Shown one piece after another: positions 2,296 through 41,273 of a stretch of 41,548 nt of DNA. Source of the stretch: Candidatus Magasanikiibacteriota bacterium (GTDB lineage: Bacteria > Patescibacteriota > Patescibacteriia > Magasanikbacterales > GWA2-37-8). The position numbers and the translations under genes are program-made. Each line of letters begins with the position of its first letter. Positions within the stretch are counted from its first letter, which is position 1. The notes below the pieces were generated by a model. That model saw only the letters and a list, made by a program, of their open reading frames with translations, was not told the origin of the DNA and made no database searches. The DNA lies in contig JAVHSM010000035.1 in NCBI GenBank assembly GCA_036172155.1, positions 1-41,548 on the forward strand, written 5' to 3'.

Positions 2296-2304
2296 TAGAT
2301 ATTT

Positions 2305-14346: not shown

Positions 14347-14348
14347 TT

Positions 14349-14429
14349 GTCATTCCCGCGCTTTTAATTGTCATTCCCGCGAAAGCGGGAATCCAGAAAT
14401 GCGTAGATTCCCGCTTTCGTGGGAATGAC
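14349..14429. repeat. Cluster of family-A palindromic elements (one partial, one forward, one inverted)
   Basis: gtcattcccgcg (14349-14360). gtcattcccgcGAAAgcgggaatcc (14370-14394). gattcccgctttcgtgggaatgac (14406-14429). Confidence 0.9.
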
Positions 14430-14442
14430 AAAATTAAATTTT

Positions 14443-15045: not shown

Positions 15046-15052
15046 TTGATTT

Positions 15053-15077
15053 GTCATTCCCGCGAAAGCGGGAATCC
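15053..15077 (+). repeat. Family-A palindromic element (GAAA loop)
   Basis: gtcattcccgcGAAAgcgggaatcc, an 8-bp stem attcccgc/gcgggaat. Confidence 0.9.
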
Positions 15078-15084
15078 AGAAAGT

Positions 15085-15387
15085 ATGAATAGGAGGGATT
15101 TTTTTGTATATATTCTAGCTAATCAAAAAAATGGCGCTATCTATGTTGATGTTACTAATAATTTAATTAGAAGAATATATGAACATAAAAATAATATTAT
15201 AGATGGGTTTACAAAAAAATATAATATCCATAATTTGGTATATTATGAATCTTATGATGATATTAGAAATGCTATTAGCAGAGAAAAACAAATAAAAAAA
15301 TGGAATAGAAAATGGAAAATAAGATTAATTGAAGAAAATAACTATTCTTGGAAAGATTTGTATAAAGAATTAAATCCTATTAATTAA
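15085..15387 (+). CDS. GIY-YIG nuclease family protein (UPF0213/YhbQ-like)
   Basis: 'FFVYILANQKNGAIYVDVTNNLIRRIYEHK' and 'REKQIKKWNRKWK'. The ORF-track start at 15046 translates the repeat (ICHSRESGNPE), so ATG 15085 is preferred. Confidence 0.8.
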   Translation: MNRRDFFVYILANQKNGAIYVDVTNNLIRRIYEHKNNIIDGFTKKYNIHNLVYYESYDDIRNAISREKQIKKWNRKWKIRLIEENNYSWKDLYKELNPIN

Positions 15388-15391
15388 TATC

Positions 15392-15444
15392 CTGGATCAC
15401 CGCCTGCGCGGGGATGATAAAACTATAGTGATAGCAGGAATGAC
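15392..15444 (-). repeat. Degenerate family-A element in inverted orientation plus a terminal GGAATGAC
   Basis: ctggatcaccgcctgcgcggggatgat (15392-15418) is the reverse complement of a GTCATTCCCGCG...GGAATCCAG-like unit. gcaggaatgac lies at 15434-15444. Confidence 0.7.
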
Positions 15445-15453
15445 AATTATTAT

Positions 15454-16329
15454 ATGAATGAAAAACTTTTCAATGTAGATTATTTGAAGCACCTTTGTTT
15501 CAAATTTCAGTTGCGACCATCCAAAGAATATGGTCAAAATTATCTTATCAATCCGGAGGCGATAGAGATGGTGATCGTCGCGAGTGGTGTCAACAAAAAA
15601 GATACCGTGGTGGAAGTGGGTCCCGGTTTTGGTATTCTCACTTTGGATTTGGCGGCCAAAGTAAAAAAATTATTCGCATTTGAAATTGAAATAAAACTAA
15701 AACCATATTGGGAAGAAATCAGTACGCGCCTATCTCAAAGTAAAGAAAATAATTTTGAAATTATTTGGGGTAATGTTTTGAGAATGGCGAAAGATCGCCA
15801 TGTCGCTGAGCTCCTCGCGATGACCGGTGAATACAAAGTAGTGGCCAATTTGCCATATCAGATTACTTCGCCAATATTAAAATTATTTTTGGAAGATTTG
15901 AAAAACAAACCCAAAGAAATGACTTTGATGGTACAAAAAGAAGTTGCTCAAAGAATTTGCGCCAAACCGGGGGAGATGTCGGTACTTGGTTTGTCGGTAC
16001 AATATTTTGGCGAGGCCGAAATTGTTGGTGAAGTAAAAAATAACAATTTTTGGCCTGTACCAAAGGTAGATTCGGCGATTATAAAAATAAAACTTAAAAA
16101 ATCTACAACCACCCCTGAACAAGACCGTCAATTTTTCAAAATTATTAAAGTTGGCTTTGCTCAAAAAAGAAAATTATTGACCAAAAATTTATTGCCAATA
16201 ATTGGCAAGCAACACAAAGAAAAACTGTTAGCCGAATTAAAAAAACTTGGTCACAAAGAGACAGTGCGTGCTCAAGAACTCAGTATCGCCGATTGGCAAG
16301 CATTAACAAAGATATCCACATTACAATAA
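15454..16329 (+). CDS. rsmA: 16S rRNA (adenine1518/1519-N6)-dimethyltransferase
   Basis: 'YGQNYL', the SAM motif 'VVEVGPGFGILT' and 'ANLPYQITSPIL'. Confidence 0.9.
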   Translation: MNEKLFNVDYLKHLCFKFQLRPSKEYGQNYLINPEAIEMVIVASGVNKKDTVVEVGPGFGILTLDLAAKVKKLFAFEIEIKLKPYWEEISTRLSQSKENNFEIIWGNVLRMAKDRHVAELLAMTGEYKVVANLPYQITSPILKLFLEDLKNKPKEMTLMVQKEVAQRICAKPGEMSVLGLSVQYFGEAEIVGEVKNNNFWPVPKVDSAIIKIKLKKSTTTPEQDRQFFKIIKVGFAQKRKLLTKNLLPIIGKQHKEKLLAELKKLGHKETVRAQELSIADWQALTKISTLQ

Positions 16330-16349
16330 TGTAGTTTTTGTGTTATAAT
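16321..16349 (+). promoter_or_regulatory. Candidate extended -10 promoter for the TSP3/giant-protein operon
   Basis: TGtTATAAT at 16341-16349, with a weak -35 TTACAA at 16321-16326 (17-nt spacer). It overlaps the rsmA stop. Confidence 0.35.
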
Positions 16350-16370
16350 AACAGCAAATTATTTGAGCCT

Positions 16371-17024: not shown

Positions 17025-17033
17025 TTTTGCCGT

Positions 17034-20000: not shown

Positions 20001-23000
20001 GCTGATGTCGTGTCTTGTCGTGCTTACAAAGGCAGTAGCGCCAATAAAATTCAGACAGTCTTGACCGATACTTTTGAAAATCAAGCAGAACTATTACCGG
20101 AGAATGGCTGGACTACTGATACTTCCACTTCACCCAACAACACCATCAGCTGGTCCACCGAATCTACTCATATCGGCGGACATTCTTTGAGTTTTGTTGG
20201 TGTGGGAGCATTACAAAAAACAGTTCCTCTCAAAGGTGGTAATTTGGACGCTTTGTCCAACCTAGGATACAGTGTGAGTTTTTGGGCCAAAGGCAGTGGT
20301 GTCAATGTAGCAGTTTTAATGCAAGACGGTCGTGGTAATAATACTTCTACTAGTTCGATTTCAGTGAATAATACTTGGCAATATTTTAAATTTAATTTTG
20401 AATTAAACTCAGCAGGGGAGAGCGGTGAAGGAGATTTGATTTTCCAAAATGCCGTTAATGGTAATTTGTTTTTGGATAATTTGCGGGTGACGAAAGTGGT
20501 AGACTATTTGTATCTGGTCAAAGATTCTCTAAGAGTTGATTCGATTTGTGACGATAATCAGCAAGACAACTTGCCAGGTCACGCTTTGGGTTGCACCGCC
20601 TATACCGGTCCGCAAAGTACCAATCCGGATAATTTAAAATCTGCCACCGGTCAAGATCTATATTTCCTTACCAATTTTAGTTTCCTTTGTCGTGATGGCG
20701 CTATCGGTTGTACCGCTTTCAAAGACACCTTCAACAAATCCAATTCCACCGTATCCGACACTGGTCCGCGCGCCTACAATGTCCGTTTGACCGGAGCAAC
20801 TGCCAGTAAAGCGTCAATAGTGCTTGGTAATGATAGCTATTCTTGTAATATTGAACAGGGCAAAACCAGCTGTTATGTGAATATTCTTGGCCATGACAAA
20901 AAAGAAATAGAAACACAATCACTAGGCAATGCCAAAGCGGATTTTGTCAACTCTACTTATTTTGTCCCGGCCGATACTTCCAACTCAGATCCGATTTATT
21001 TGGTCGCCAAAAATGATCAGGTGGATTTCACTTGCAGTTCAGCGGATTTGGGTTGTACTTTTGCCGGTTTGCAAAAAAGCACACCGTCTGGCAATAAATT
21101 CGAAACCACTACCATCAAGCTCGACCCTAATCAGTTTGACACTTGGTCGGATTCTTCCGGTGCTATCAAAGATGGTATCTTGTGTCATCAGGAAGCGCTA
21201 GGTTGTAATGCCTATGCTTCAAGCAAAGGCGACGCCTATTTCAAAGATCCGCAAATTACCGGCGCCAAGATTTGTACCTACAACAATAGTGTGCAAATAA
21301 AAGATGTCAATACCAGTGGTTGGTTTTGGAGTGGTGTGGGAGTTTGCGCCAGCACCTCGACGCCGGCGGTTTTGACTGCCAATACTTGTACCGCCGATTC
21401 CGATTGCGCCGGTGGCAATGTCTGTATCAACAAAGATATCCAACCGTGTTATCCCAATTATTTACAAAACGGCAACGCCTACGGTCTGTGGTCGTATGGC
21501 GATAAAGGCAAATACGACAATTTTGTTGGCACTTGTCCAACACAACAAAATGATTGCACTCAATTTGTCGATCACAACGAATTGGATAGCTTCGGCAATC
21601 CGATCGCTTATTTCAAAATTAACAATGACAAAATCCAAACGAATAATTGTTCCGGTCAGGTCAGTCAAAAAGCCGGTTGTGTGTTATTTGATCAAGTGGA
21701 CAAACCAAATAAAATTTGGAACACCGCGGCGACTTATGCCAAGAGCGACGCCTATTATGTATCTTCGACTTCCGGACAGATTGATATCAATCAGGTTACC
21801 AAAGTACCACCCCAATCGGTACCGGGAAATAATGATGCCAATATTATTATCCAAGTAACTCACGATAGAGAGTGTGCGGAGTGGCTCCAATGCAAACAAT
21901 CGCATCCGGTTTGGGATGACCAACTAAATAGTTGGAAACAGGTCTGTGAAAAAGTCGGTCGCTGTGATCGACTACCGGCCAACGCGCAGGGAAATAATTC
22001 GACCAACTGCGCCGAGTTTATCGACGGCCAACATAGCGACAGCGAACAACTGCTCACCGAAGATCTATATATCAATCGCGACACCACTTGGAACGGCCAC
22101 GACTATGACGGTCTGTCTATCTTGGGTATGTATCCGGTAGAAGAGCTCAAACAATTTGATATCAATACCGACACCAGCACTATATCGGACTGGCGTTTGG
22201 TCAAACCGATAGTTTGTTCGGGCGGAGTCGTTAACAATTGTCCGGATAATCCGCTCAGTGATTTTGCCTGTATCAAATCCGGCGAGTCTTGCGGCCCAGG
22301 TAAAAAAGGTCTGTGTTTGAATGGTAATTGTCTGCGTGATCCTTATGGTGACAATAGTGTTACCGATATCGTAGAAAAATCCCCGAGATATACCTGTCGC
22401 GCCTATCCGGAATCCAGTGCTCCTTTCCCAAATTTTAGCCAAACCAGCAAACAAGATTTTTCGGGAGTGAACAAATGCAATGAATTAACACTAGACCAAG
22501 CGCCAAACCAATTGAATTGTGAATGTAGTTATTCCAAAGTCAGTTTTGGTAATGGTGCGATGACCAAATATTTTGGTTATAATTCTACCACGACCGATAG
22601 TAATAATTCGGTATGTATTGGTGGTAAAAACAACGGAAAACTATGCGAAGGTAAGGATCTGGCTTCCACTTCCGCTACTTCCACGCCGACATCTTGTCAA
22701 GGTGGTACCTGTCAAATACTCGATAAAGTAAGCGAATTTTTGGGCTGGCAGGGGCAGTGTTTGGAAAAGGATTTTTCACGCACTATCAACGGTCTGAAAG
22801 ATGAATACCCATGTTTGTCGTGGTTGCCGGTGGACAAACTCGACGGGGCAATAGATATCAACGACCAAAATTCACTGGCCGGATTTACTCCATATCCAAA
22901 CCACCAATATTGTCTAGATGGAGAATATTATCAAAAATTAAAACCTTTTGGTACTTGTGAATGGCATCCAAAAATTAAATATGTTGGAATCGCTTTCGTA

Positions 23001-25178
23001 CCGAAGTGTGATTCAAAAAAATGTGAAGAATTAGGAAAAAAATACTGTGAAAATTATCCAGGTTTTACACTGAAAACAGATGACCAATATTTTTTTGAAA
23101 AGGTTGATCTACCAGTGATTGGATATTATTGTGGTGGAATAGCGATTGGTGGAAAGAAAGATGGAAATGGTGATTGTAGTGGTTTATTTAATTCTTGTAA
23201 GTGGGATTGTGTTCAAAAGGAAACCGTGGTAAAAGCCGGCGGCTGGATGGCTCTGGACAAACCCACTTCAGCCAATGATACCGCTATTGGTTGTCGTATT
23301 GTGGCTAAAATAGATAAAACAGCTGTCGCCCAGACAGATAATATTTGGAAAGATAAAAAAGACTTTAAATTAACTGTGTTTGATAGTAACTATTTAAATA
23401 ATTTAAATTATAATTTTAATTCACCGATTGATACTTTCGCTAGATTGACTTCTTATACAGACACAGCCAACCAAGATTTAATACGCTTGATGTATTGCAA
23501 TACTAGTCCGACGATTTCAATGCCTTTTAGCGACGGTAGTTGTAAAGATACAAAGAATGAAATTACTACGATTAATGCTGATAGTGGAAAGATTATTAAG
23601 AATTTAACTTATGGTGGTTGGACAATTGGAAGCACGCAAAATTGTACTGACTCTCAAAGTTGTAACGGTGGAGCAAGTGGAGCGGCGTGTGTTGGTGCAG
23701 TGTCTGCACCTGCAAAATGTCAAAGATTTTGTAAAATAGATAATGACTGTAAATTTTCTTATGAAAATGATAATCAAGATCAAGTCTCTGTTGATTTGGG
23801 TAATTGTATTTTACCGAGTTCCGGTACTGGATTAGGCACTTGTAGTAATTTTGCAGATAATGCTTGTTTTGATCACTCCTACGGAGATAAAACCACCAAT
23901 AATTGTCAGCAATGTGTTGGACCAAATAGCAACGGTGAATATATACCTTATAAGTGCAATTGCCAAACGGAACAAATTATATCAAACGAATGTCAAAATG
24001 TGAAAATTGTCAGTTATCCAAATAATACATCTAATGAAAACGGTGTTTGTAAAGTTGCGAAAACTGCAGGCAAATGTAATGATAAAAGTTTAGATCCATA
24101 CAAAGGTACCGATTGTCTAACAAATCATGAATGTTATAGTAAAGTGTGTATTGAGAGCTTTGTAGGGGGTGGCCCAGTGTTTGTTTGTGCGGATAAAGTG
24201 ACACCGCCAAAACCGCCCGATGAAATATCCGCTAAAATTAATAATGCTTTTCACGAATTTCACCAACTATTTGCTAAAGTAGATATTAGTAGTTTGTGGT
24301 TATTTTCAACAAAAAATCAAGCTTATGAATTGTTAAAAGACGACACAACAGTAAAAACAAATTTAATAACCAACGACATCACCAACTTCGGCAATGCCCC
24401 ATCTGTCCACCCTGTCGGCGCCTGCAACTCCTCCGGCCAATGTCTAGAGCTCCCTCAAGCCGGTATTACCATCAACGACCAATCCTCCGGCAACATCTTC
24501 ATCACCGCCCTCCCACACCCCGCCATCCTCCATTTCTTCGCCTCTGCCGACAAAAACCAAATGCCAATAAGAAAAATAAAGATAGACTGGGGAGATGGCA
24601 CCGGCGCCCACCCCTACGGTGGCAACCAAGGCAGCTCATTCTCCAACCAACGCGGCGCCGTACAAGCCAACAGCTGTATCAATGGTAACTGTATATATAT
24701 CGGTACCAACGGACAATCCGTTTCTTCCACCATCCATTGCAGTAAAACCTTCGACTGTAAAAACCAACTCCTAGACATCTGCCAAGAGAAATCCATCGCC
24801 CCCGACTTCGCCACTATCTCCAAAATCACCTGCGACAGTCATTATTTCTCTTTCAATTACACCTACGACTGTATCCAATCCGACACCAAACACTGGAACC
24901 AAGACTGTTCAACTATAGATCCAAAATGGGAAGGTGGCTGTTGTATATTCCACCCCAAAGTACAAGTATTGGATAACTGGGGATGGTGTAATGGAACTTG
25001 TGGAGATGAGAAGTCTGCGGGGGGTGTGGGGTGTTATCAGGGAGAGAAATTAGCAACAGAGGATAATGGTTGGAAAAATGAATGTGATATGTTAGGATCA
25101 CAAAGTATCCCATTCACTCCTCTCAACATCCAAAACATCCTAGTCTCTCCAAACAAAACCGAAAGTCCGATCAAATAA
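17034..25178 (+). CDS. Giant (2714 aa) secreted cysteine-rich protein, function unknown
   Basis: Uninterrupted 8.1-kb ORF. Signal peptide ends AQPAQA. Cys residues are very frequent throughout. A CBM/galactose-binding-like stretch lies at ~20064-20500 ('GHSLSF', 'YSVSFWAKGSG', 'NNTWQYFKFNF', 'LFLDNLRV'). A PKD-like 'IDWGDGTG' lies near the C-terminus. Confidence 0.8.
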   Translation: MFYKKIKKFTIGIILSAFIFSSMAGFLLSAQPAQAIPVEILGDVPRQAGGIFDMIKNGWKIAIMNAFQQAVAYGMRKVAYDSAVYIASGGKGQKPFWHTDNNKSYLQNVADEAAGTAIEQLGSGFGVNLCMIPDVKVDLAFRLGLHYNFATADGNKPPPPSCSFTKFLENWNGDAWASKYGDGAGGVDSSKLFNSSFSADNTDLGLALKSTEQIDRLVAKQTNGASADRIEGQGFKTLANLIDGKTKTPSQAIKQSAEANSPSANQKKSEEQMMAALGAGAYEILPSTLSLFLNTLAGQMVKNFQDKGMLPFGACVGGYGGAACKSGGTAANYDASPDVNGRAVAEAVFSDFLIVKLNPSNNYDIIKELNSGCDTNNRGLYNCRIDQGLVRAIQEDKNGKPMTIAEALSNGSLKGDRKIISPKDQIHDSNCEVDNFYCYSNIRVLRQLGIMPLGLEIAALHSDPDSPWTLSDVVRGFYDCNKNQFGDIIYDPVNHPFCHLVDPNWVIKLNQTKCSVFASSAVPQSSGIPDRIQECEDLKICTAESKDPSHTCLNFGNCLREKNIWRFEADSCDAQFATCRTFADSSGKNVSYLYRTLDTGECDQKTAGCQAYSLEQNDSGNWNPVNKIDYGSYSTGIYLNKNVATNCSANSAGCSAFRALNDDGHGTVFDIKKAPDYLHCYDVGADQSNGIQWPQNFADIAKLKPREECKNYASVCIADEIGCSQYTLADVPAGESAPIIPGKFTPASSTIDAVSGTTITDWNDQCDAKCAGYDAYREMPTKYSAGTALTYLVPPSAYNNSGTTCNANQEGCNSFTNLSTTENGGEKVEYFTDLRACIKPDITKQKNFYTYEGSIAGGYQLQSFVLQEDKTGDSDPNAKAGGPAYVFATDQEKIDAKEICNATKYKSSLQDVLISDCREFNDDKGSVYYRLLSHTVVVSADCTPYRLNSSELAGKDTCFGNGELKDGFCFYQGLPGGIETSAGSSQSCTADVVSCRAYKGSSANKIQTVLTDTFENQAELLPENGWTTDTSTSPNNTISWSTESTHIGGHSLSFVGVGALQKTVPLKGGNLDALSNLGYSVSFWAKGSGVNVAVLMQDGRGNNTSTSSISVNNTWQYFKFNFELNSAGESGEGDLIFQNAVNGNLFLDNLRVTKVVDYLYLVKDSLRVDSICDDNQQDNLPGHALGCTAYTGPQSTNPDNLKSATGQDLYFLTNFSFLCRDGAIGCTAFKDTFNKSNSTVSDTGPRAYNVRLTGATASKASIVLGNDSYSCNIEQGKTSCYVNILGHDKKEIETQSLGNAKADFVNSTYFVPADTSNSDPIYLVAKNDQVDFTCSSADLGCTFAGLQKSTPSGNKFETTTIKLDPNQFDTWSDSSGAIKDGILCHQEALGCNAYASSKGDAYFKDPQITGAKICTYNNSVQIKDVNTSGWFWSGVGVCASTSTPAVLTANTCTADSDCAGGNVCINKDIQPCYPNYLQNGNAYGLWSYGDKGKYDNFVGTCPTQQNDCTQFVDHNELDSFGNPIAYFKINNDKIQTNNCSGQVSQKAGCVLFDQVDKPNKIWNTAATYAKSDAYYVSSTSGQIDINQVTKVPPQSVPGNNDANIIIQVTHDRECAEWLQCKQSHPVWDDQLNSWKQVCEKVGRCDRLPANAQGNNSTNCAEFIDGQHSDSEQLLTEDLYINRDTTWNGHDYDGLSILGMYPVEELKQFDINTDTSTISDWRLVKPIVCSGGVVNNCPDNPLSDFACIKSGESCGPGKKGLCLNGNCLRDPYGDNSVTDIVEKSPRYTCRAYPESSAPFPNFSQTSKQDFSGVNKCNELTLDQAPNQLNCECSYSKVSFGNGAMTKYFGYNSTTTDSNNSVCIGGKNNGKLCEGKDLASTSATSTPTSCQGGTCQILDKVSEFLGWQGQCLEKDFSRTINGLKDEYPCLSWLPVDKLDGAIDINDQNSLAGFTPYPNHQYCLDGEYYQKLKPFGTCEWHPKIKYVGIAFVPKCDSKKCEELGKKYCENYPGFTLKTDDQYFFEKVDLPVIGYYCGGIAIGGKKDGNGDCSGLFNSCKWDCVQKETVVKAGGWMALDKPTSANDTAIGCRIVAKIDKTAVAQTDNIWKDKKDFKLTVFDSNYLNNLNYNFNSPIDTFARLTSYTDTANQDLIRLMYCNTSPTISMPFSDGSCKDTKNEITTINADSGKIIKNLTYGGWTIGSTQNCTDSQSCNGGASGAACVGAVSAPAKCQRFCKIDNDCKFSYENDNQDQVSVDLGNCILPSSGTGLGTCSNFADNACFDHSYGDKTTNNCQQCVGPNSNGEYIPYKCNCQTEQIISNECQNVKIVSYPNNTSNENGVCKVAKTAGKCNDKSLDPYKGTDCLTNHECYSKVCIESFVGGGPVFVCADKVTPPKPPDEISAKINNAFHEFHQLFAKVDISSLWLFSTKNQAYELLKDDTTVKTNLITNDITNFGNAPSVHPVGACNSSGQCLELPQAGITINDQSSGNIFITALPHPAILHFFASADKNQMPIRKIKIDWGDGTGAHPYGGNQGSSFSNQRGAVQANSCINGNCIYIGTNGQSVSSTIHCSKTFDCKNQLLDICQEKSIAPDFATISKITCDSHYFSFNYTYDCIQSDTKHWNQDCSTIDPKWEGGCCIFHPKVQVLDNWGWCNGTCGDEKSAGGVGCYQGEKLATEDNGWKNECDMLGSQSIPFTPLNIQNILVSPNKTESPIK

Positions 25179-25193
25179 TATTCACACTGCATT

Positions 25194-25298
25194 ATCATTC
25201 CCGTGAAAACGGGAATCAACGCTGTCATTCCGAGCCAAGCCGAGGAATCTTCACTCTGTCATCCTGAGCAGAGCGAAGGATCCCTCTCATAATGACAG
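25194..25298 (+). repeat. Cluster of one family-A and two family-B palindromic elements
   Basis: atcattcccgtGAAAacgggaatc (25194-25217). gtcattccgagccaagccgaggaatc (25224-25249). gtcatcctgagcagagcgaaggatccct...aatgacag (25258-25298). Confidence 0.9.
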
Positions 25299-25310
25299 CA
25301 AACAAAAAAA

Positions 25311-25336
25311 CTCTCGAATCATCGAGAGTTTTTTAT
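25311..25336. terminator. Bidirectional Rho-independent terminator between convergent genes
   Basis: aaaaaaa-ctctcga-atca-tcgagag-ttttttatt. The stem is 7 bp, with an A-run upstream and a T-run downstream. Confidence 0.7.
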
Positions 25337-25360
25337 TCTCCTCAGTATATTATTTTATTT

Positions 25361-25402
25361 GTCATTCATTTTAATTTGTCATTCCCGTGTAAACGGGAAT
25401 CC
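25361..25402 (+). repeat. Partial end plus a full family-A element (GUAA loop)
   Basis: gtcattc (25361) and gtcattcccgtGTAAacgggaatcc (25378-25402). Confidence 0.85.
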
Positions 25403-25491
25403 AATCAAATAACATCCTAAGGAGGGAGTGCTAGAAATGCTCATGGGAATTAGCCATGAGACTGTTTCTAGCACATCCCCAAGAGAAAAAT

Positions 25492-25908
25492 TTACTGGAC
25501 ACGTTCCAGCTCGCCGCACTCGCCATCGCCGCCGCAAGCCTCTAGATGGTTAATGTCGTGCCAGGTAATTCCTGACTCTGGCACCCACCACCCGGTGAAG
25601 TGTACACCGCAAACCGGAAACTGTTCGTCCGGTGTAAGTTTCGCTTCCATGATATATAAAATATCATTTAGCGACCGCCACTTTCCGGTAGGCAAGTCCT
25701 TCCGGCAAACCGGCGCAGTCTCAGGCGACGAAGAAACATCACCCTTCGAAACCGAACCGTCGGCGCCGTTGCCATCAGCGCCACCGTCAGTCGGTGGCAC
25801 CCAGTTTGGGTCGCACTCAGGCGACCCAGGACAACCGGTGAGTGCATTGCACCCACCGGCCAATAACACGGCGACCAAAGTCGCCAGGAACATAGCAGTC
25901 ATCTTCAT
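25492..25908 (-). CDS. Small secreted Cys-containing putative lipoprotein in a GC-rich islet
   Basis: ATG (25908-25906) lies 5 nt after a GGAGG (complement of 25914-25918). Signal peptide MKMTAMFLATLVAVLLAGGC has a lipobox-like AGGC. 8 Cys. No family recognised. Confidence 0.6.
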   Translation of the reverse strand: MKMTAMFLATLVAVLLAGGCNALTGCPGSPECDPNWVPPTDGGADGNGADGSVSKGDVSSSPETAPVCRKDLPTGKWRSLNDILYIMEAKLTPDEQFPVCGVHFTGWWVPESGITWHDINHLEACGGDGECGELERVQ

Positions 25909-26010
25909 GACTACCTCCAAGCTACCCCGTTGTCGCCGGGGAGCCGATTACCGCTAACCAGTAGGGTGTGCAACCTGCACGCCTTTTGGATTACGGTGGG
26001 GTGTTTGTTT

Positions 26011-26102
26011 GTCATTGCGAGATTCCCGTTTGCACGGGAATGACAAGCGAAGGAATTCCTCGGCGGAGTTTATACTCGCGAAGCGGGTGCTCGGAATGAC
26101 AG
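26011..26102. repeat. Composite of family-A (inverted, GCAA loop) and family-B elements
   Basis: gtcattgcgagattcccgtttgcacgggaatgac (26011-26044), then gcgaaggaattcctcgg...ctcgcgaagcgggtgctcggaatgacag (to 26102). Confidence 0.85.
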
Positions 26103-26282
26103 ACAAACATACCACCATAATCTTTGCGCGGTAGTCAGATATATTTTTCTCTTGGGTTATAATGGCACAGTCGATTTATCTCTTTTTTCAAGAGCAAACC
26201 AACCGCACACATGTCAAAGAACGAACAGCTTGTAATAGCACTATTAAAGGGTTTTGTCAATCTTTGCCATTCAACCCACCAA

Positions 26283-26321
26283 GGGATTCCTCCGCTCGTG
26301 CGAACTCGGTCGGAATGACAG
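26283..26321 (-). repeat. Family-B half element (inverted)
   Basis: gggattcctccgctcgtgcgaactcggtcggaatgacag. Confidence 0.8.
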
Positions 26322-26493
26322 TATAGACAAAATCCTCCTAATTTAAGCTATTATACCTGTATGGTGACATATTTTTTGGTTATGAACAATGGGGGGGTGG
26401 ATAACTTTTTCTGATTAAAAATGTTTATGGGGGTGGTGGTGTTTTTTTGACATTTTGATGTTTTTTTTGTTACAGTGCCTATGTATTAAATTT

Positions 26494-26893
26494 ATGGATA
26501 CAAAATTATTACTCGATTATTGTTTTACAAATTCTGAAAGGAAATTTGCGACCGCTTCGTCATTATTTCGTTCCAAAAAATATTCCGATTGTTTATTTTT
26601 TTTGCCATCTTACTTTAGAATTTTTGTTAAAAGGTAAATACATAGAAATAAGAAAAGAAATGTTTCCAATTATTCATGATTTAGAAAAAATAGCGTTAAA
26701 AATAAATTTGCCATTGGACAAAAGGCAAAAAGAAGTTTTAACTATTATCAACACATTTAATATCGCCGGTCGATATGGTGATTATAAATTATCTTTTTAT
26801 AAACAAGCGGATAAAAAATTTGCCAAGAAATATTTTGAACATACAAAAAAATTAAGGATATGGATAAAAAAATTTGTACCCAAAGACAAGTAA
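26494..26893 (+). pseudogene. HEPN-domain gene interrupted by a +1 frameshift in a T8 run
   Basis: The N-terminal part 'MDTKLLLDYCFTNSERKFATASSLFRSKKYSDCLFF' is in frame 1. The remainder, 'CHLTLEFLLKGKYIE...IIHDLEKIA...AGRYGDYK', is in frame 2. The switch point is the T8 run at 26596-26603; removing one T restores a single ORF. Confidence 0.7.
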
Positions 26894-27038
26894 AAATTTT
26901 TGCCAAAGATTTTATAAATTATTTAAAAAAACAGCACGGTCTAAAAATAAAAACCGCGTGGTGGTTCCTTTCCATGTCAAAGATTTACCATTAGGAACTT
27001 TGAAGAGTATTTTGAGAGAAGCAGGGATAAATTTATAA
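26860..27038 (+). pseudogene. HicA-like toxin remnant (internal deletion plus frameshift)
   Basis: The N-terminal-like part 'KIFAKDFINYLKKQHGLKIK' is in one frame. The C-terminal-like part 'RVVVPFHVKDLPLGTLKSILREAGINL*' is in another. The central GSH-containing core is missing, and there is no hicB partner. Confidence 0.5.
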
Positions 27039-27188
27039 ATTGACCAATAGTGAACGACTGTATCCATGATGATTAATTCCACCTCCGAAGGCGGATTTTT
27101 TATTGTCTCAAATTGAGACGATGGGCGTATAAAAATGAGACAATCAAAATCACTTGTGGATAAGTATTGTTTAGCGGTTTTTGACGGT

Positions 27189-27217
27189 TTGTTTGGTATT
27201 TGTAAATGTGGTATAAT
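27189..27217 (+). promoter_or_regulatory. Candidate sigma70-type promoter of the T4SS-like operon
   Basis: -35 TTGTTT (27189-27194), a 17-nt spacer, then an extended -10 TGgTATAAT (27209-27217). Confidence 0.45.
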
Positions 27218-27250
27218 ATCCGCGTAAATAATAAGCAGACAGTTTTAATT

Positions 27251-27274
27251 GTCATTCCCGTGAAAACGGGAATC
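27251..27274 (+). repeat. Family-A palindromic element (GAAA loop) in the operon leader
   Basis: gtcattcccgtGAAAacgggaatc, ending 7 nt before the ATG at 27282. Confidence 0.9.
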
Positions 27275-27281
27275 TAAAAAC

Positions 27282-30200
27282 ATGTTCTCAATTTTAAAAC
27301 AGAGAACAATCGCGTTATATCATTTTGTCAGAGCACGCCAAAAGCTTGTTGGTAGTTTTTGTTTTTTGTTTTTTGTTTTTTTGGCGGTGTATTTTGTGGC
27401 TGATGTGCATGTTGCGCAAGCGCAAGCGGCTGCTGCGGCTACTACGGCTGCTACGGTTGAACCAGGTGTGTTTATTCACGCGGTGGTGTCTATTCTGTTG
27501 TATGTCGCGCAATTCTTTTTGAAGATAGCGATGTTTACTTTGAATTTTATCATTGAGGTGGCTGGCTATAATGGATTTTTGAGTTCTTCAGCGGTGAGTA
27601 TCGGCTGGGTGATGGTGCGCGATATCACCAATATGTTTTTTGTGATTATTTTGTTGTTGGTAGCTTTTGGCACGATTTTGGGGTTGGAACAATATGAATG
27701 GAAAAAAATGCTGGTCAAATTCTTCTTCGCCGCGATACTGGTGAATTTTAGCCGAGTGATTTGTGGTTTGATTATTGATGTCGGCCAAGTAGTGATGATT
27801 ACATTTGTGAACGGCGTCGCCGCTACCGCGGGTGGTAATATGATTAACGCTTTTGGTTTGTCAGATTTTAATAAACTCTCTGCCGATGTGAAGGCGCAAG
27901 ATAGTACCGATCCAAGCAATATAGTCGTGGCCGCGATAAGCGCGGTGGTGTTTTCCGGTTTGACTATGGCTATCATGTTGTCGTTTCTGTTTATTTTGGT
28001 GGCTAGAATGATTGTCTTGTGGGTTTTGATTATTTTGTCGCCGTTTGCTTTTGTGCTGAGTGTGATTCCGCAAACGCAAAAATACGCTTCGCAATGGTGG
28101 TCTGAATTTGGTAACCATGTGGTGGTCGGACCGGCGCTGATGTTTTTTCTGTGGTTATCTTTTGCGGTGGTAGGGGGCGGACATATCAATGATGAAATTA
28201 GCGGTGCTAGTCAAGTACCAAAAGCACAGCAAATGAATGAGACTGACAACGGTGGTATTGTTTCGCAGATGAAATGGAACAGCATGGCCAGCTTTGCGAT
28301 CGCGATCGGTATTTTGTTGGTTGGTGCCAAGACCGCCCAGTCACTGGGCACTCAGGGTGGTAGCGCAATGAGCAAAGCCACAGATTTTGCCAAGAAGACG
28401 GCGATGGTGGCATCGGGTGCCAGCGCGGCAATGTGGTTGGGGAGAAAAGGGGCGGAGGGGTTGAAAGCGGGAGCCAAAGGCGCCGGCAAATTGGCCTATA
28501 TGGGTACTTTGGAAAATAGCGTGGAAAGAGTGAAAAATTTTGGACAGCGCCAGCTGGAAGGTTATCGGGCTTTTCGTGTGGCTGGGCCTAGGGCAGTGAT
28601 GGAAACGGTAGAAGCAAAAGATGAAAAAGGCAAAGTTGTATATGAAAAAGACGCAAACGGGAAAGTTGTAATTGATGAAAAAACCGGTCAGGCGAAAGCA
28701 AAGATGGAGACTAGACAAAAAAAATATGAAAATGGTGAATTGATGTGGCAAGAACGCACCGGTCCTTTGAGTAAGATTGGAAGCGGCTATCGCAAAGTAT
28801 TGGCTTCGCAAAAAATGTTAGAAAAAGTAAAAGAACAAAAAGAGACCAGAGAGGAATTGATAAAATCTCGTGCCGGTGTGGTACCAAAATATCTTATGCA
28901 AAAATTGGAAGGACCAGGTATTAGAGATTTAGAAAGAATGGAGAAAGGGCAATTAGCGGCGGAAAAAGAAAGATCAGCGGCCAAAACTTCTGAGATGGAA
29001 GCGATAGGACGCCAGCAAGTATTGTCATCCAAACGTTATAAGGCCGGAAAATGGCAAAATGAAAATCCGTCTGTTGGTGCACAAATCGCCCAGCACAAAG
29101 AAAGAGCCGCCGCTACCGAAGAGGGCATAAAAAGTTTATTTGAGGCGGCTAAAGCTTCTTATTTGGAAACCAGTGCTGGTAAAAAAGTTTTGAATGCTAA
29201 AGTGGCGGCGAGTTTGAAAATTGCTCGCGATGAGTCCCATATTAAAACGACTGAGGGTGAGTCAAGACGCAAGTTTATGCGTAAAGACCCAGTAGGACAA
29301 GCTATTTTACAAGAAAAATCCAAATGGGATGCTAGAGGAAAACGTGGAGAGTCTTTGACTAAAACGGCTGAAGAAAAGGCAAGAGCTGAATTTGCCAAAG
29401 GGTCAGAAGGTAAACAGTGGCTGGCGGAACAAAAATCTGGCGAACTGCAAACAAAAGTATATGCAGGGGATATTGCTGCTTTGGAAGCTGAGGCTGAAAA
29501 GAAAGTAACTGACTTACAGCCAGATCTTGTGTCACAATTAAATATTAGTGAACAAGCCAAAAAAGCAGCCGAAGATTTTATCAAGACCTTAAAAGAAAAA
29601 GATTTGCAAGGAAGCTTTGAAAAAGCCGCTGAACGCATGCGAGACATTTTAAAAACAAAAGATAAGGGTGAGATGGCCAAGAAGCTGAAGGCAGCCGAGG
29701 AAGAGAATCCATATATTATGGCCATGACCGAAGGCCAAAGATTGAAAACATCCACCGACGCTTCCAGTATTAGAAAAAAACAAGCCGAACAAGCGGCCAA
29801 AAATGTGGCAATTTCCAAACCAAAATATGGTACTACTACCGCCTCGACTGCTTTGTCCGATTATTCCGAGGGAAAAATGAAAGAGTACCGACAATTGGAG
29901 CGTTCAGCTGCTATGCGCAAAGCCACCGAAGTATATGTAGAATTAATGGCACAAAAAGATGCTCATAATAATGGTGAAGAAGGGGCTGCTGCTTTGGATA
30001 TCGATCAAGAAGCCGAACTATTCGCGGCGAGTAGTTTGTTGTCAGAAGAAGCATGGCAAGATGATCAACATGATTATGTTACTTCAATGTTGCAGGACTT
30101 AAAAGATGGAAAGATGAATGATAAAGATGGAAATATAACCTCTGATGGAAAAAAATGGGAAGTGGCTGCCAAAAATTTTGGTAAATTGGGTTGGTTGGGG

Positions 30201-31589: not shown

Positions 31590-31607
31590 ATTTATTAAAA
31601 TATAGTT

Positions 31608-32960: not shown

Positions 32961-32961
32961 T

Positions 32962-33996: not shown

Positions 33997-33997
33997 T

Positions 33998-35692: not shown

Positions 35693-35797
35693 GTCATTCT
35701 GAGTGAAACGAAGAATCTCTTAAAGTTTGGTTAGAGGGATCCTTCGTTTCACTCAGGATGACGGTAAATAATAGATTCCCGTTTGCACGGGAATGAC
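35693..35797. repeat. 70-nt composite family-B hairpin plus an inverted family-A element
   Basis: gtcattctgagtgaaacgaagaatctct...agagggatccttcgtttcactcaggatgac (35693-35762). gattcccgtttgcacgggaatgac (35774-35797). Confidence 0.9.
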
Positions 35798-39010: not shown

Positions 39011-39099
39011 GTCATTCCGATGTCATCCTGATCCGCCAAAGGCGGAGAAGAATCCCTTAGTGGCGAACATAAGGGATTCTTCATTTCATTCAGAATGAC
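39011..39099. repeat. Partial end plus a composite family-B hairpin
   Basis: gtcattccga (39011-39020). gtcatcctgatccgccaaaggcggagaagaatccctta...taagggattcttcatttcattcagaatgac (39022-39099). Confidence 0.9.
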
Positions 39100-39862: not shown

Positions 39863-41273
39863 TGTTTTGCCAGATATTAACAAACTTATCCGAATAAACT
39901 TTTTTCCAGACAGTAGAAATGTTTATGTCTTTTTCCAATTGAGTAGTTTCAACTTTTAAAATTTTGTTGGTATCAAAAAACCAATTGTTAATGGTGTCCG
40001 GTTCCGCCATTCTTGTAAAATTTGGTTTTTTTAGGAAGATATAATCGGCGTTGTCTTTTTCTATTTCTTTTAGACCGTTTTGATTGTCCAATATTTCAAA
40101 ATAATGCTCCAGCATGGTTTTGTTTTTATCGTACATCCAAGTGGCGGTGCCGCGGCCGTCAAAATATACCAATGCATTGGGTAGTGTCCAGTTGAGATAA
40201 CCTCCCCAGCTGAATTCATTAAATATTTTTATTGGTTGGTTGGTCGTATTTTTGAGGAAAGTGATTGCCTGATAAGGAAATGAATTTCTTTTGGCCAAAA
40301 TAACATCATTCCAAACATCATTGGTAAAATGAACGGCGTGGATATAGTAACCTGATAACAATATTAAAGTCGCACAAAATAAAATGGTGATGAACTTAGG
40401 TAAAAGGGATCCTTTACTGCATTCAGGATGACAGCCAAGAGCTGTAGGTATTTTTTTTAATGAAAATTCTTGCGCGATTATTGCAATGGTTTTTTCAAAA
40501 ATAGGCACCGCCAACAATCCTACAAAAATCGCCTGTCGCTTGTACATAAAAGCGGCATAGTAGAAAGCGCAAAATAATATTGTATGCGTAAAATTTATTT
40601 TTTTCTTATAAAAACTATAAAAAACCATTACCAACGCGATTGTTTGAATTATTAAAATTTTCCAAAATATGGGGAAAACATAGCTAGGCACCCATTCGCT
40701 GATGTGCATTTTATAATAGTTTTGTCCGAAATATTCCCAAATTTCTGTCCAGATTTTCCAACCATAAGGATTGATGGCAATCAACAAAGCGGCGATAATT
40801 TGTATTATGATAATAATCATAGTCATCCTGAGTGTTAGCGAAGGATCTCTTTTTGTTGGATTAAGGGATTCTTCGTGGATTTTATCCTCGCGAAGCGGGG
40901 GTTCAGAATGACAAGATATGTCATCTAGTTTATCCGGAAACATTTTTGTCTTGTATTTTATCGGTAATAAAATACTTATTAGTGCACCAACTAAATAGAT
41001 ATTTAAAACAATAAAACCCAAAATCCAACTTCCGTGCAATATCGACCACAGCCAGAACAGCGGTGGTAATAGATACAACCAGCGAAAATTACTTTTGGCT
41101 TTTTCAATCAGCCAGACTGTCAAAGAAAAAAATAAGGGCGTAAACATCGCCAGACGCGCCACAAAAATATGGATGACCGTGGATTGACAGATTAACGCTA
41201 TAATTAAATAAGTTGAAGTAATTTTTTTGGAAAAAGTTTTTCCGATAATTATAAATGACAAAAAAAACAACAA
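39843..41273 (-). CDS. Polytopic membrane protein (possibly a GT-C-like glycosyltransferase) with in-frame repeat insertions
   Basis: 476 aa with many hydrophobic helices and a soluble C-terminal domain ('NEFSWGGYLNW...VYFDGRG'). 'CHSEPPLREDKIHEESLNPTKRDPSLTLRMT' and 'GCHPECSKGSL' are translated repeat elements. The functional call is weak. Confidence 0.55.
   Translation of the reverse strand: MLFFLSFIIIGKTFSKKITSTYLIIALICQSTVIHIFVARLAMFTPLFFSLTVWLIEKAKSNFRWLYLLPPLFWLWSILHGSWILGFIVLNIYLVGALISILLPIKYKTKMFPDKLDDISCHSEPPLREDKIHEESLNPTKRDPSLTLRMTMIIIIIQIIAALLIAINPYGWKIWTEIWEYFGQNYYKMHISEWVPSYVFPIFWKILIIQTIALVMVFYSFYKKKINFTHTILFCAFYYAAFMYKRQAIFVGLLAVPIFEKTIAIIAQEFSLKKIPTALGCHPECSKGSLLPKFITILFCATLILLSGYYIHAVHFTNDVWNDVILAKRNSFPYQAITFLKNTTNQPIKIFNEFSWGGYLNWTLPNALVYFDGRGTATWMYDKNKTMLEHYFEILDNQNGLKEIEKDNADYIFLKKPNFTRMAEPDTINNWFFDTNKILKVETTQLEKDINISTVWKKVYSDKFVNIWQNINRAPR
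40406..40432. repeat. Family-B half element inside a CDS
   Basis: gggatcctttactgcattcaggatgac (27 nt). Confidence 0.8.
40822..40912. repeat. Composite family-B element inside a CDS
   Basis: gtcatcctgagtgttagcgaaggatctct...taagggattcttcg...ctcgcgaagcgggggttcagaatgac. Confidence 0.85.

What the first reader, a model, noticed from the sequence alone, without database searches (positions are those of the whole stretch)
25194..26321. Two families of GTCATTCC-ended palindromic elements with GNRA loops and compensatory stem changes
**Family A** has the consensus GTCATTCCCGYG-NRA-RCGGGAATC. Read from the GTCATT end, the copies are:
- 14370, 15053: stem ...CCCGC/GCGGG, loop GAAA
- 25194, 27251: stem ...CCCGT/ACGGG, loop GAAA
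- 25378: loop GTAA
- 26021, 35774 (opposite strand): loop GCAA

Every loop is a GNRA tetraloop. The C:G to T:A change at the closing pair is compensated.

**Family B** has the consensus GTCATYCYGAG...CGARGRATC. It keeps its pairing through three variants:
- ATTCC/GGAAT: 25224, 34133, 34295
- ATCCT/AGGAT: 25258, 40822
- ATTCT/AGAAT: 35693

Family-B halves also pair up into 70-90-nt long hairpins (35693-35762, 39022-39099).

I count about 20 copies or part-copies in 41 kb. They sit at almost every operon boundary. Covariation suggests selection on a folded RNA or ssDNA form, not just sequence drift.
Basis: seen in the sequence. Interest (0 to 1): 0.6.

Follow-up and report, generated by a model that had tools for sequence, protein, structure and literature searches.

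The report
Hairpin repeats tied to Ssn nucleases
These short palindromic repeats are real and belong to a known, widespread class of DNA hairpin repeats that travel with small GIY-YIG (Ssn) nucleases; this tiny groundwater genome carries three such nucleases and some 275 repeats, many sitting in frame inside essential genes.

Summary
The window carries 20 clean (T)GTCAT…ATC hairpin units plus about 7 partial ones; the 786-kb genome carries about 275. Stem covariation is real.

They are not a new RNA class. Family A matches the published 28-nt Neisseria NTS/dRS3 motif, the CGTC-1 REP type. In Neisseria this motif is bound and cut only as single-stranded DNA by SsnA, a 94-aa GIY-YIG nuclease.

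The window encodes such a nuclease (15085-15387) behind a family-A unit. Two paralogs on another contig are each bracketed by family-B units. Across 116 homologous loci from many phyla, 69 show the same repeat–gene–inverted-repeat layout. Repeat subtype follows the nuclease tree (6 changes against 26-29 in the shuffles printed).

Congeners show empty sites for single units and for the whole cassette. Their copy numbers run from 0 to 51, against 231 here. At least 26 units lie in frame inside Pfam-verified housekeeping genes, a trait already described for this repeat class.

GNRA loops hold here (78 of 81) but not across taxa (17 of 47). Only 47 of 275 units are followed by a T-run.

Verdict: new member of a known kind. 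Cleavage and mobilisation by these nucleases are inferred, not shown.

The parts
14349..14360 (+). 5' half-site (tag plus left arm only), 9 nt upstream of a full family-A unit
14370..14429 (.). Inverted dimer of family-A units (14370-14393 +, 14406-14429 -), tags outward
   Evidence: Folds as one 26-bp DNA hairpin, -30.8 kcal/mol, z -8.4.
15053..15076 (+). Family-A unit (NTS-type), upstream repeat of the ssn cassette; ends 8 nt before the ATG
   Evidence: DNA fold -9.0 kcal/mol, z -4.7.
15085..15387 (+). ssn-like gene: 100-aa single-domain GIY-YIG protein (P0001)
   Evidence: Pfam PF01541, E 1.7e-13; translation; 579 relatives in genome contigs.
15389..15444 (-). Decayed downstream inverted repeat(s) of the ssn cassette: one tag with a broken arm, then a degenerate A-like unit
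15793..15824 (-). 32-nt unit (arms ATCGC/GCGAT) in frame inside rsmA (15454-16329)
   Evidence: Ten congeners lack it; net +21 nt.
25194..25217 (+). Family-A unit with a mutated tag (ATC instead of GTC)
25224..25249 (+). Family-B1 unit (arms ATTCC/GGAAT, GA-type core)
25258..25282 (+). Family-B2 unit (arms ATCCT/AGGAT)
25378..25401 (+). Family-A unit, loop GTAA
26009..26044 (.). Left arm of an ATTGC-type unit (26009-26019 +) abutting a complete family-A unit (26021-26044 -); looks nested
26052..26100 (-). Long B1-type unit with a nested hairpin; right arm carries a 1-nt insertion
26285..26319 (-). 35-nt B1-long unit
27251..27274 (+). Family-A unit, loop GAAA
34133..34372 (.). Four units inside ORF 33998-35251: 34133-34158 +, about 34165-34207 - (ATTGC type), 34295-34320 +, 34337-34372 -. 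The frame stays open.
   Evidence: The ORF has no Pfam match.
35693..35762 (.). Inverted B2 dimer (35693-35717 +, 35738-35762 -)
   Evidence: Absent from this spacer in 10 of 10 congeners.
35774..35797 (-). Family-A unit in the prgI-traC spacer
   Evidence: A unit sits at the same place in 2 of 10 congeners; 8 have none, 6 of them with spacers of 7-12 nt.
39011..39099 (.). Half-site (39011-39021), 33-nt unit with mismatched arms (39022-39054 +) and B2 unit (39075-39099 -), forming a long hairpin
40408..40912 (.). Three units inside ORF 39843-41273(-): 40408-40432 -, 40822-40847 +, 40867-40912 -
   Evidence: The ORF has no Pfam match, so whether it is a real gene is open.

Best explanation
**What the elements are.** They belong to the (C/T)GTC-tagged palindromic repeat superfamily: CGTC-REPs, Neisseria dRS3/NTS, Ssn-related motifs (SRM).
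- Each unit has an unpaired GTC tag, a hairpin whose first pairs are A:T and T:A, and a closing C with a short tail.
- On transiently single-stranded DNA the unit folds. It is then the recognition site of a small single-domain GIY-YIG nuclease of the Ssn family, which nicks just 5' of the tag.

**What this genome holds.** It encodes three Ssn paralogs, each bracketed by its own repeat subtype:
- The window's gene (15085-15387) goes with family A.
- The two paralogs on contig C34 go with family-B types.

**Why the stems covary.** A copy must still form the hairpin to be recognised and propagated. The pressure acts on the element, not on an RNA function of the host.

**How they behave.**
- Repeat–ssn–repeat cassettes behave like autonomous units.
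- The roughly 275 solo units and inverted dimers behave like their miniature derivatives.
- The load expanded recently in this lineage and survives only where harmless: in spacers, or in frame in tolerant protein loops.

**Shown here.**
- The repeats, their covariation and the three genes.
- The cassette layout across phyla.
- Nuclease clade tracking repeat subtype.
- Presence/absence polymorphism among congeners.
- In-frame intragenic copies.

**Inferred from the published family.**
- ssDNA binding and cleavage by these three proteins.
- Their role in spreading the repeats.
- Any effect on DNA uptake or recombination.
For: **Motif identity.**
- The consensus of 51 cross-phylum and window units is nnTGTCATTCCCGCGAAnGCGGGAATCCAG.
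- The published NTS is CGTCATTCCCGCGMAVGCGGGAATCYRG (PMC11893778, passages).
- The paper's own SRM search pattern hits this genome 52 times, against 1.05 in 20 shuffles.

**Partner genes.**
- Three single-domain GIY-YIG ORFs of 100, 96 and 94 aa.
- All three have a GTCAT hairpin upstream on the gene strand. The two on C34 also have an intact inverted one downstream; the window's is decayed.

**Layout across taxa (116 homolog loci with both flanks held).**
- 86 have a same-strand unit within 120 nt upstream.
- 85 have an inverted unit within 120 nt downstream.
- 69 have both.
- Hairpin density is 7.7 per kb beside the gene and 0.36 per kb further out.

**Cognate pairing.**
- Homologs closest to the window protein are flanked by CCCG-type units.
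- All 29 best loci for the second C34 paralog have GA-type flanks beside their main Ssn gene, and none has the CCCGCG type.
- On a tree of 120 Ssn proteins (113 labelled), flank class changes 6 times. The five shuffles printed gave 26-29.

**Association among 31 related genomes.**
- 7 of 7 genomes with a strong Ssn match hold 7 or more units.
- 8 of 24 without one do.
- Fisher p = 0.002, overstated because kin are not independent.

**Mobility.**
- The sua5-rsmA spacer is 0-16 nt in three congeners. It is 411 nt with the cassette here, and 858 nt with a cassette between perfect inverted units in another congener.
- The prgI-traC spacer is 7-12 nt in 6 congeners. Two congeners hold one roughly 28-nt unit there. 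This genome holds a unit plus a dimer.
- Ten identical copies of a 47-nt form occur in this genome.

**Other transposases.** No RAYT and no IS110 transposase was found in this genome.
Against: **No biochemistry here.** Cleavage, ssDNA specificity and mobilisation are transferred from Neisseria and Wolbachia homologs. I could not align those homologs, because no SsnA sequence was in reach.

**Repeats without the nuclease.** Eight related genomes hold 8-63 units with no strong Ssn match found: G003, G009, G010, G011, G015, G016, G022 and G023. G003 is 100% complete. So the repeats persist, and perhaps spread, without the nuclease.

**Signs of decay in the window's own cassette.**
- Its downstream repeat is decayed.
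- Its protein reads YVD where the two paralogs read YIG.
- It may therefore be inactive.

**Subtypes with no matching nuclease.** Arms ATTTC (21 units), ATTGC (15) and ATCGC (4) have no matching nuclease in the assembled 88% of the genome.

**Orientation bias.** Singletons lie 43 in the same sense as transcription and 17 opposite. This model does not predict that.

**Messy intragenic sites.** Intragenic copies replace native loop sequence rather than insert cleanly.

**Weak predicted folds for family B.** Single family-B units are not predicted to fold better than shuffles.
Confidence: 0.8

Rival explanations
1. The units act mainly as RNA: transcribed 3'-end hairpins with GNRA tetraloops that end or stabilise transcripts. 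On this view, selection on that RNA fold explains the covariation.
For: - Singletons between co-directional genes lie 43 same-sense and 17 opposite. All units together lie 83 and 51, p = 0.007.
- Family-A units fold well as RNA: -13.6 kcal/mol, z -4.6.
- 78 of 81 family-A loops in this genome are GNRA.
- Di Nocera et al. 2013 argue that many such repeats are transcribed and act as RNA (PMC3733652, abstract and section 15).
Against: - Only 47 of 275 units have a T-run within 14 nt.
- A canonical terminator (25305-25334) stands beside the units rather than in them.
- 50 of 275 units lie deep inside ORFs.
- 51 of 134 units in co-directional spacers lie antisense. About half of all units sit in inverted pairs, whose second member would carry the complementary loop.
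- Across taxa only 17 of 47 loops are GNRA.
- Family-B units fold at z about 0 as RNA.
- Copy number runs from 0 to 231 among 12 genomes of one genus. That does not fit a conserved host function.
- SsnA does not bind the RNA form.
Confidence: 0.12
2. The units are relics. They spread by some other means, or long ago, and the flanked GIY-YIG genes are now domesticated or unrelated passengers. There is no present nuclease–repeat interplay in this organism.
For: - Eight related genomes hold repeats with no strong Ssn match found.
- The window cassette's downstream repeat is decayed.
- Di Nocera et al. 2013 proposed that CGTC repeats lost their dedicated enzyme.
Against: - Ten identical 47-nt copies occur in this genome.
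- This genome has 231 pattern matches, against 0-51 in its congeners.
- A congener holds a cassette bracketed by perfect inverted units.
- Repeat subtype tracks the nuclease tree.
Confidence: 0.12
3. They are classical REP/REPIN elements mobilised by a RAYT (IS200/IS605-type tyrosine transposase).
For: - Same general look: short tagged palindromes, and inverted dimers that form long hairpins.
Against: - No Y1_Tnp match in the genome, which is 88% complete. The same search rang in 6 control genomes.
- The tag is TGTC (T before GTC in 256 of 275 units), not GTAG.
- The flanked gene is a GIY-YIG nuclease, not a RAYT.
Confidence: 0.03

Closest known systems
NTS / Ssn-related motifs with SsnA GIY-YIG ssDNA nucleases (Chenal et al. 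2025, Nat Commun 16:2388; PMC11893778; abstract, passages and sections 7 and 10 read)
   Same: - Family A matches the 28-nt NTS consensus, including the tag and the 3' C-Y-R-G tail.
- The partner gene is a single-domain GIY-YIG protein of about 94-100 aa.
- The repeat–gene–inverted-repeat layout is the same.
- Different homologs go with different repeat variants.
   Different: - The host is a 0.8-Mb groundwater genome from a phylum of 0.5-2-Mb genomes, probably Patescibacteria.
- One small genome holds three paralogs with three repeat subtypes.
- 18% of units lie deep inside ORFs, against the 2% reported for N. meningitidis.
- The GA-core family-B forms and the 31-50-nt nested forms fit the paper's search pattern poorly (52 hits against about 275 units).
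CGTC-tagged REP superfamily: CGTC-1 = Neisseria dRS3 = Rickettsia conorii RPE-6 (Di Nocera et al. 2013, BMC Genomics 14:522; PMC3733652; abstract, sections 6 and 15, and passages read)
   Same: - The tag is often TGTC.
- 8-bp stem starting A:T, T:A; 4-nt loop; short CCA-like tail.
- Mostly inverted dimers.
- Several families coexist in one genome.
- Intragenic in-frame copies concentrate in DNA repair and replication genes and tRNA synthetases. Here: UvrC-like, PcrA/UvrD, AddA-like, LigA, SMC, RarA, PheT, ValS, LeuS.
   Different: - That paper found no dedicated enzyme. Here the flanked GIY-YIG genes are evident.
- It listed five phyla; this host's phylum is not among them in the text I read.
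- The commonest tail here is CCT (100 of 275).
REP/REPIN elements with RAYT transposases
   Same: - Tagged palindromes and inverted dimers.
- A flanked single gene (the REPtron layout).
- Action on ssDNA hairpins.
   Different: - The enzyme class differs (HUH tyrosine transposase against GIY-YIG), as does the tag (GTAG).
- No RAYT is present.
Rickettsia palindromic elements inserted in frame in protein genes (recalled: Ogata et al. 2000; mentioned in PMC3733652)
   Same: - Short palindromic repeats are tolerated in frame within essential genes of a reduced genome.
   Different: - The best-known Rickettsia case (RPE-1) is longer.
- Here the units are 24-50 nt, and the sites are shared hot spots occupied by different subtypes in different congeners.

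Membership tests
Ssn-related motif / NTS | Sequence fits CGTCATTCCCGCGMAVGCGGGAATCYRG or the degenerate SRM pattern, and is enriched over shuffles | tested here: met
   The family-A consensus matches apart from T for C before GTC. The SRM pattern gives 52 hits against 1.05 in shuffles.
Ssn-related motif / NTS | Units flank a gene for an Ssn-type nuclease on both sides | tested here: met
   Both C34 paralogs are flanked on both sides. The window gene has an intact upstream unit and a decayed downstream one. 69 of 116 homolog loci are flanked on both sides.
Ssn-related motif / NTS | Bound and cut as ssDNA only, on one strand, 5' of the tag | not testable with these tools
   Needs purified protein and oligonucleotides.
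Ssn nuclease family (cd10448) | Small single-domain GIY-YIG protein of about 94 aa | tested here: met
   100, 96 and 94 aa, with PF01541 as the only domain.
Ssn nuclease family (cd10448) | Catalytic Tyr, Tyr and Glu at the positions mutated in SsnA (Y6, Y17, E64) | tested here: inconclusive
   The invariant residues are Y9, Y20 and E67 in the window protein, a uniform shift of +3, and Y7, Y17 and E64 in the 94-aa paralog. This compares numbering only. I saw no SsnA sequence.
Ssn nuclease family (cd10448) | Assigned to CDD cd10448, or inside the Ssn clade of the GIY-YIG tree | not testable with these tools
   No CDD library was on hand. NCBIfam gave no hit over its cut-off. PDB gave only weak UPF0213 hits, E 0.13.
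CGTC-1 REP (dRS3 / RPE-6) | CGTC or TGTC tag, 8-bp stem starting A:T and T:A, 4-nt loop, short unpaired tail, mostly inverted dimers | tested here: met
   T precedes GTC in 256 of 275 units. Inverted pairs: 55 with tags outward, 15 tandem, 3 inward. The stem and loop are shown.
REP/REPIN with RAYT | GTAG tag and a RAYT gene flanked by the repeats | tested here: not met
   No PF01797 match. The tag is TGTC.
Intrinsic terminators / GNRA RNA hairpins | Hairpin followed by a U-tract; GNRA loop conserved among relatives | tested here: not met
   A T-run follows 47 of 275 units. GNRA loops occur in 17 of 47 distinct cross-phylum units.
Any Rfam family | Match at the gathering score | tested here: not met
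   0 matches in the window.

The most novel reading that the evidence does not exclude
The repeat–ssn–repeat cassettes are active autonomous mobile elements of a class not yet demonstrated: a GIY-YIG, ssDNA-hairpin-guided transposon. The solo units and dimers are its miniature derivatives.

On this reading the genome is caught in a burst, with three co-resident nuclease/repeat specificities spreading side by side. The three natural pairs would give a readable recognition code for programmable ssDNA nucleases.
Probability: 0.3. Interest if true: 0.75.

Novelty: new member of a known kind. Interest (0 to 1): 0.4.

Why it matters
**A known repeat class in an extreme host.** The finding puts this class, and its recently identified nuclease partner, into an ultra-small groundwater genome.
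- About 1% of the DNA is these repeats (8317 of 786415 bases).
- At least 26 copies are translated as part of housekeeping proteins, if those genes are expressed.

**A ready specificity panel.** Three nuclease paralogs with three matching repeat subtypes sit in one genome. That is a natural test set for how Ssn enzymes read their hairpins, which bears on their proposed use as ssDNA tools.

**Raw material for the open question.** Both earlier papers left open whether the nuclease mobilises the repeats. The empty and filled sites among congeners are the material needed to ask that.

**A practical point for annotators.**
- These units break short-read assemblies at their positions.
- They generate spurious ORF extensions and recurrent peptides of the VIPxxxGI and DSRxxGND kind.

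Tried and rejected
**Searches that found nothing**
- Rfam at gathering score on the window: 0 matches.
- RAYT (PF01797) and IS110 (PF01548) in the own genome: none. The genome is 88% complete.
- NCBIfam on the three nucleases: nothing over its cut-off.
- PDB sequence search with the window protein: only UPF0213 chains at E 0.13-0.17.

**Sequencing runs**
- Four DNA runs of one groundwater study hold the stretch. No RNA holder is listed.
- I laid their contigs on 14300-34290.
  - The contigs end at the repeat units.
  - The many 'joints' link one unit to another and read as repeat artefacts.
  - No contig showed an empty site.
  - So nothing can be said about polymorphism within the sample.

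**Taxonomy**
- I asked for the kinship of five named candidate-phyla genomes. None is told for such handles. The host's phylum therefore stays inferred, from genome sizes and habitat.

**Method slips and limits**
- My first core-defined test of family-B arms used a greedy gap that shifted the right arm by one base. I discarded it and repeated it with a lazy gap.
- The crude count of 103 units 'inside ORFs' included chance hits and over-extended ORF starts. I replaced it with the stricter 50 of 275 and the Pfam-verified 26.
- In the cross-phylum alignment my detection rule required the outer five pairs to be complementary. Only the inner three pairs (147 of 153 cells paired) are an unbiased test there.
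- In the tree test I ran 200 label shuffles but printed only five (26-29). I did not print the minimum.

**Tests with no signal**
- Orientation against local GC skew: 55 against 46, p = 0.43.
- Position within co-directional spacers: 65 of 131 units lie closer to the upstream stop.

Supplementary Data 4 and 5 of PMC11893778 and Additional file 3 of PMC3733652 may already list such genomes or intragenic cases.

**Literature searches for prior description in this phylum**
- 'Patescibacteria' with 'GIY-YIG'.
- 'Candidate Phyla Radiation' with 'extragenic palindrom'.
- The only near hit, PMC12455944, merely lists a GIY-YIG protein among transferred genes (passages).
Full report
**Observation**

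The window is one whole contig (C35) of a 786,415-base, 81-contig genome. The genome is 88% complete and has 39% G+C.

- GTCATTCC occurs 17 times in the window, against 1.24 expected and a maximum of 4 in 100 shuffles.
The copy at 25194 starts ATC instead of GTC.
- Both long hairpins fold strongly as DNA, with z of -8.9 and -6.9.

**Genome-wide census**

I used a structural definition: the tag GTCA[TC], a 6-nt arm, its complement with at most one mismatch, then C.

| Unit length | Observed | Mean of 20 shuffles |
|---|---|---|
| up to 30 nt | 180 | 19.5 |
| 31-50 nt | 152 | 35 |
| over 50 nt | 51 | 58 (no excess) |

- A stricter set has 275 units covering 8317 bases, 1.06% of the genome.
- Their arms are ATTCC 145, ATTCT 48, ATCCT 35, ATTTC 21, ATTGC 15, ATCCC 7 and ATCGC 4.
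- 137 of the 275 sit in close pairs: 55 pairs with tags outward, 15 tandem, 3 inward.

**Covariation**

- Family A, closing pair in this genome: T:A 38, C:G 42, T:G 1.
- Family B, defined by core only with the arms free:
  - 58 of 80 hits have fully complementary arms. Shuffled right arms gave a mean of 17.6 and a maximum of 26.
  - Three main co-varying arm pairs dominate.
- Across phyla, 51 distinct 24-nt units:
  - 98.5% of cells are paired, against 84.3% shuffled and 20-50% when slid.
  - 54 cells show changes on both sides, against 8.2.
- My detection rule forced the outer five pairs to pair. The unforced inner three pairs are paired in 147 of 153 cells.
- The fold is therefore conserved while the sequence changes.

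**What it is**

A text search for the 8-mer led to Chenal et al. 2025 (PMC11893778).

- They define the Neisseria NTS, a 28-nt motif that contains the dRS3 repeat.
- They show that SsnA, a 94-aa single-domain GIY-YIG protein, binds and cuts it only as ssDNA. SsnA does not act on duplex DNA or RNA.
- The three bases before the palindrome matter for cutting. The C after it matters for binding.
- ssnA genes in many phyla are flanked by such motifs.

The consensus of my cross-phylum alignment equals their NTS, apart from T for C before GTC.

Di Nocera et al. 2013 (PMC3733652) had already classed these repeats as the CGTC-tagged REP superfamily.

- CGTC-1 equals dRS3 and Rickettsia RPE-6.
- They noted TGTC variants, 8-bp stems, 4-nt loops, short tails and inverted dimers.
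- They also noted copies inside DNA-repair genes and tRNA-synthetase genes.
- They found no dedicated enzyme.

**The partner genes here**

The genome has four GIY-YIG places.

- One is the N-terminus of a uvrC-like gene on C66. I judged this from the translated sequence; I did not run it against Pfam as a whole protein.
- The other three are small single-domain ORFs, about 51% identical to one another:
  - window 15085-15387, 100 aa;
  - two on C34, 96 and 94 aa.

Their flanking repeats differ:

| Nuclease gene | Flanking repeats |
|---|---|
| Window gene | Intact family-A unit 8 nt before its ATG; decayed inverted copy after its stop |
| 96-aa paralog (C34) | ATTCC-GA-type units on both sides |
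| 94-aa paralog (C34) | ATYCT-GA-type units on both sides |

**Comparative tests**

- The public genome collection holds at least 579 relatives. The best 80 come from many phyla and are 53-70% identical. That is closer than the in-genome paralogs are to one another, which points to horizontal transfer.
- Of 116 homolog loci with both flanks held, 86 have a same-strand unit upstream, 85 an inverted unit downstream, and 69 both. Hairpin density is 7.7 per kb near the gene and 0.36 per kb further away.
- Relatives of the window protein carry CCCG-type flanks.
- All 29 best loci for the 94-aa paralog, drawn from a 401-genome phylum sample, have GA-type flanks beside their main Ssn gene. None has the CCCGCG type.
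- On a FastTree of 120 proteins (113 labelled), flank class changes 6 times. The five shuffles printed gave 26-29. Kin share labels, and the loci were chosen by similarity to two queries, so this overstates independence.
- In the phylum sample, 119 of 401 genomes have a match at E ≤ 1e-15, with up to 8 copies each.

**Mobility**

Copy numbers among 31 related genomes, from the two gapped patterns summed:

- 231 in this genome.
- 0-51 in its 11 congeners; five of them have 0 or 1.
- Reversed-pattern controls gave 0 everywhere.

Association with the nuclease:

- All 7 genomes with a strong Ssn match hold 7 or more units.
- 8 of the 24 without one do.

Empty and filled sites:

| Spacer | State in congeners | State in this genome |
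|---|---|---|
| sua5-rsmA | 0-16 nt in G001, G003 and G006; 110-127 nt with an unrelated hairpin repeat in five others; 858 nt in G007, a cassette between perfect inverted units | 411 nt with the cassette |
| prgI-traC | 7-12 nt in six; one unit of about 28 nt in G008 and G011; no unit in G004 or G007 | That unit plus a 70-nt B2 dimer |

- Ten identical 47-nt copies of one long form occur in this genome.

**Copies inside genes**

- 50 of the 275 units lie more than 90 nt from the start and more than 30 nt from the stop of long open frames.
- I checked 18 of the host ORFs against Pfam. Fifteen are recognisable proteins, and together they hold 26 units:
  - RNA and tRNA modification: RsmA (in the window), MnmA (4 units), an RlmI-like methyltransferase (4).
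  - tRNA synthetases: PheT (2), ValS, LeuS (2).
  - DNA replication and repair: SMC, LigA (3), an AddA-like helicase-nuclease, PcrA/UvrD, RarA.
  - Others: SecA, a MurC-like ligase (2), a Wzy-type protein, a VirD4-like protein.
- Three ORFs had no Pfam match, including the window ORFs 33998-35251 and 39843-41273.
- In rsmA, ten congeners lack the unit. This genome has 48 nt where they have 27, a net gain of 21 nt.
- In mnmA there are three sites:
  - One site is filled only here (+60 nt; 9 of 9 congeners empty).
  - One site holds B-type units in two genomes, A-type units in two others, and nothing in six.
  - One site holds different units here and in G008.
- The units replace native loop sequence rather than insert cleanly.
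- All of this matches what Di Nocera et al. describe for this repeat class, so it is not new in kind.

**Against the RNA reading, and for it**

Against:
- Loops are GNRA in 78 of 81 family-A units here, but in only 17 of 47 distinct units across taxa. G-N-A-N holds in 41 of 47.
- Single family-B units fold at z about 0, as RNA or DNA. I recall that sheared G·A pairs and GNA-type triloops are unusually stable in DNA and are not credited by these energy models. That would matter for family B, but no call tested it.
- T-runs follow only 47 of 275 units.
- A separate canonical terminator stands at 25305-25334.

For:
- Singletons in co-directional spacers lie 43 same-sense and 17 opposite.

**Verdict**

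- The repeats are real and structured.
- They are a new member of the known Ssn/SRM, or CGTC-REP, kind.
- The host is probably a Patescibacteria genome. That is inferred from phylum genome sizes of 0.5-2.0 Mb and a groundwater source; no call shows it.
- Biochemical activity and nuclease-driven spread are inferred.

Noticed in passing
window 14349-14360 and 39011-39021; also L031, L053, L060, L014: Tandem 'stutters': the tag plus left arm alone is repeated one to three times, about 18-21 nt apart, just 5' of a complete unit. The same pattern recurs in unrelated phyla, so it may be a footprint of how the units are copied.
   Followed up: no
G000 contigs C4 (x2), C23, C24, C25, C26, C46, C49, C54, C63: A composite element of about 100 nt. 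It pairs a 47-nt long unit (ten identical copies) with an inverted 25-33-nt unit and has conserved outer flanks. It looks like a recently amplified MITE-like form.
   Followed up: partly
window 26009-26062: A complete family-A unit sits between the left arm of an ATTGC-type unit and a remnant right part. It looks like one element nested inside another.
   Followed up: no
G000 C66 about 26223-27493 (L004, L086): A uvrC-like gene carries several units within and after its N-terminal GIY-YIG region. An assembly gap (run of N) lies in the middle. I did not verify it as one ORF.
   Followed up: partly
L102-L106, sua5-rsmA spacer of G002, G004, G008, G010, G011: Where this genome has the ssn cassette, five congeners carry a different, conserved hairpin-forming sequence of about 110 nt. 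It has no GTCAT tag and I could not identify it.
   Followed up: no
window 14300-15633, 24972-27639 (table 2): In four groundwater metagenome runs of one study, summed contig depth over bins holding family-A units is about 900-4600, against about 10 for unique sequence. The same short element is probably shared by many community members. Depths are summed over organisms, so this is only a hint.
   Followed up: no
window 25305-25334: A canonical two-way terminator hairpin: 13 pairs with A-run and T-run flanks; RNA fold -15.7 kcal/mol, z -6.1. It lies between the repeat units and is distinct from them.
   Followed up: yes
window 2305-10587 and 17034-25178: Two giant ORFs of 2760 and 2714 aa. Downstream lies a type-IV-secretion-like set (PrgI 35253-35681, TraC-like 35807-36490) and a ComF-like protein (39134-39862). 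I did not study them.
   Followed up: no
window 15142-15150 (P0001 residues 20-22): The window's nuclease reads YVD where its two paralogs read YIG in the second half of the GIY-YIG motif. Together with its decayed downstream repeat, this may mean that this copy is inactive.
   Followed up: no
window 26546-26893: A small HEPN-domain ORF (Pfam E 5.3e-07) sits between repeat clusters at 26285-26319 and 27251-27274.
   Followed up: no
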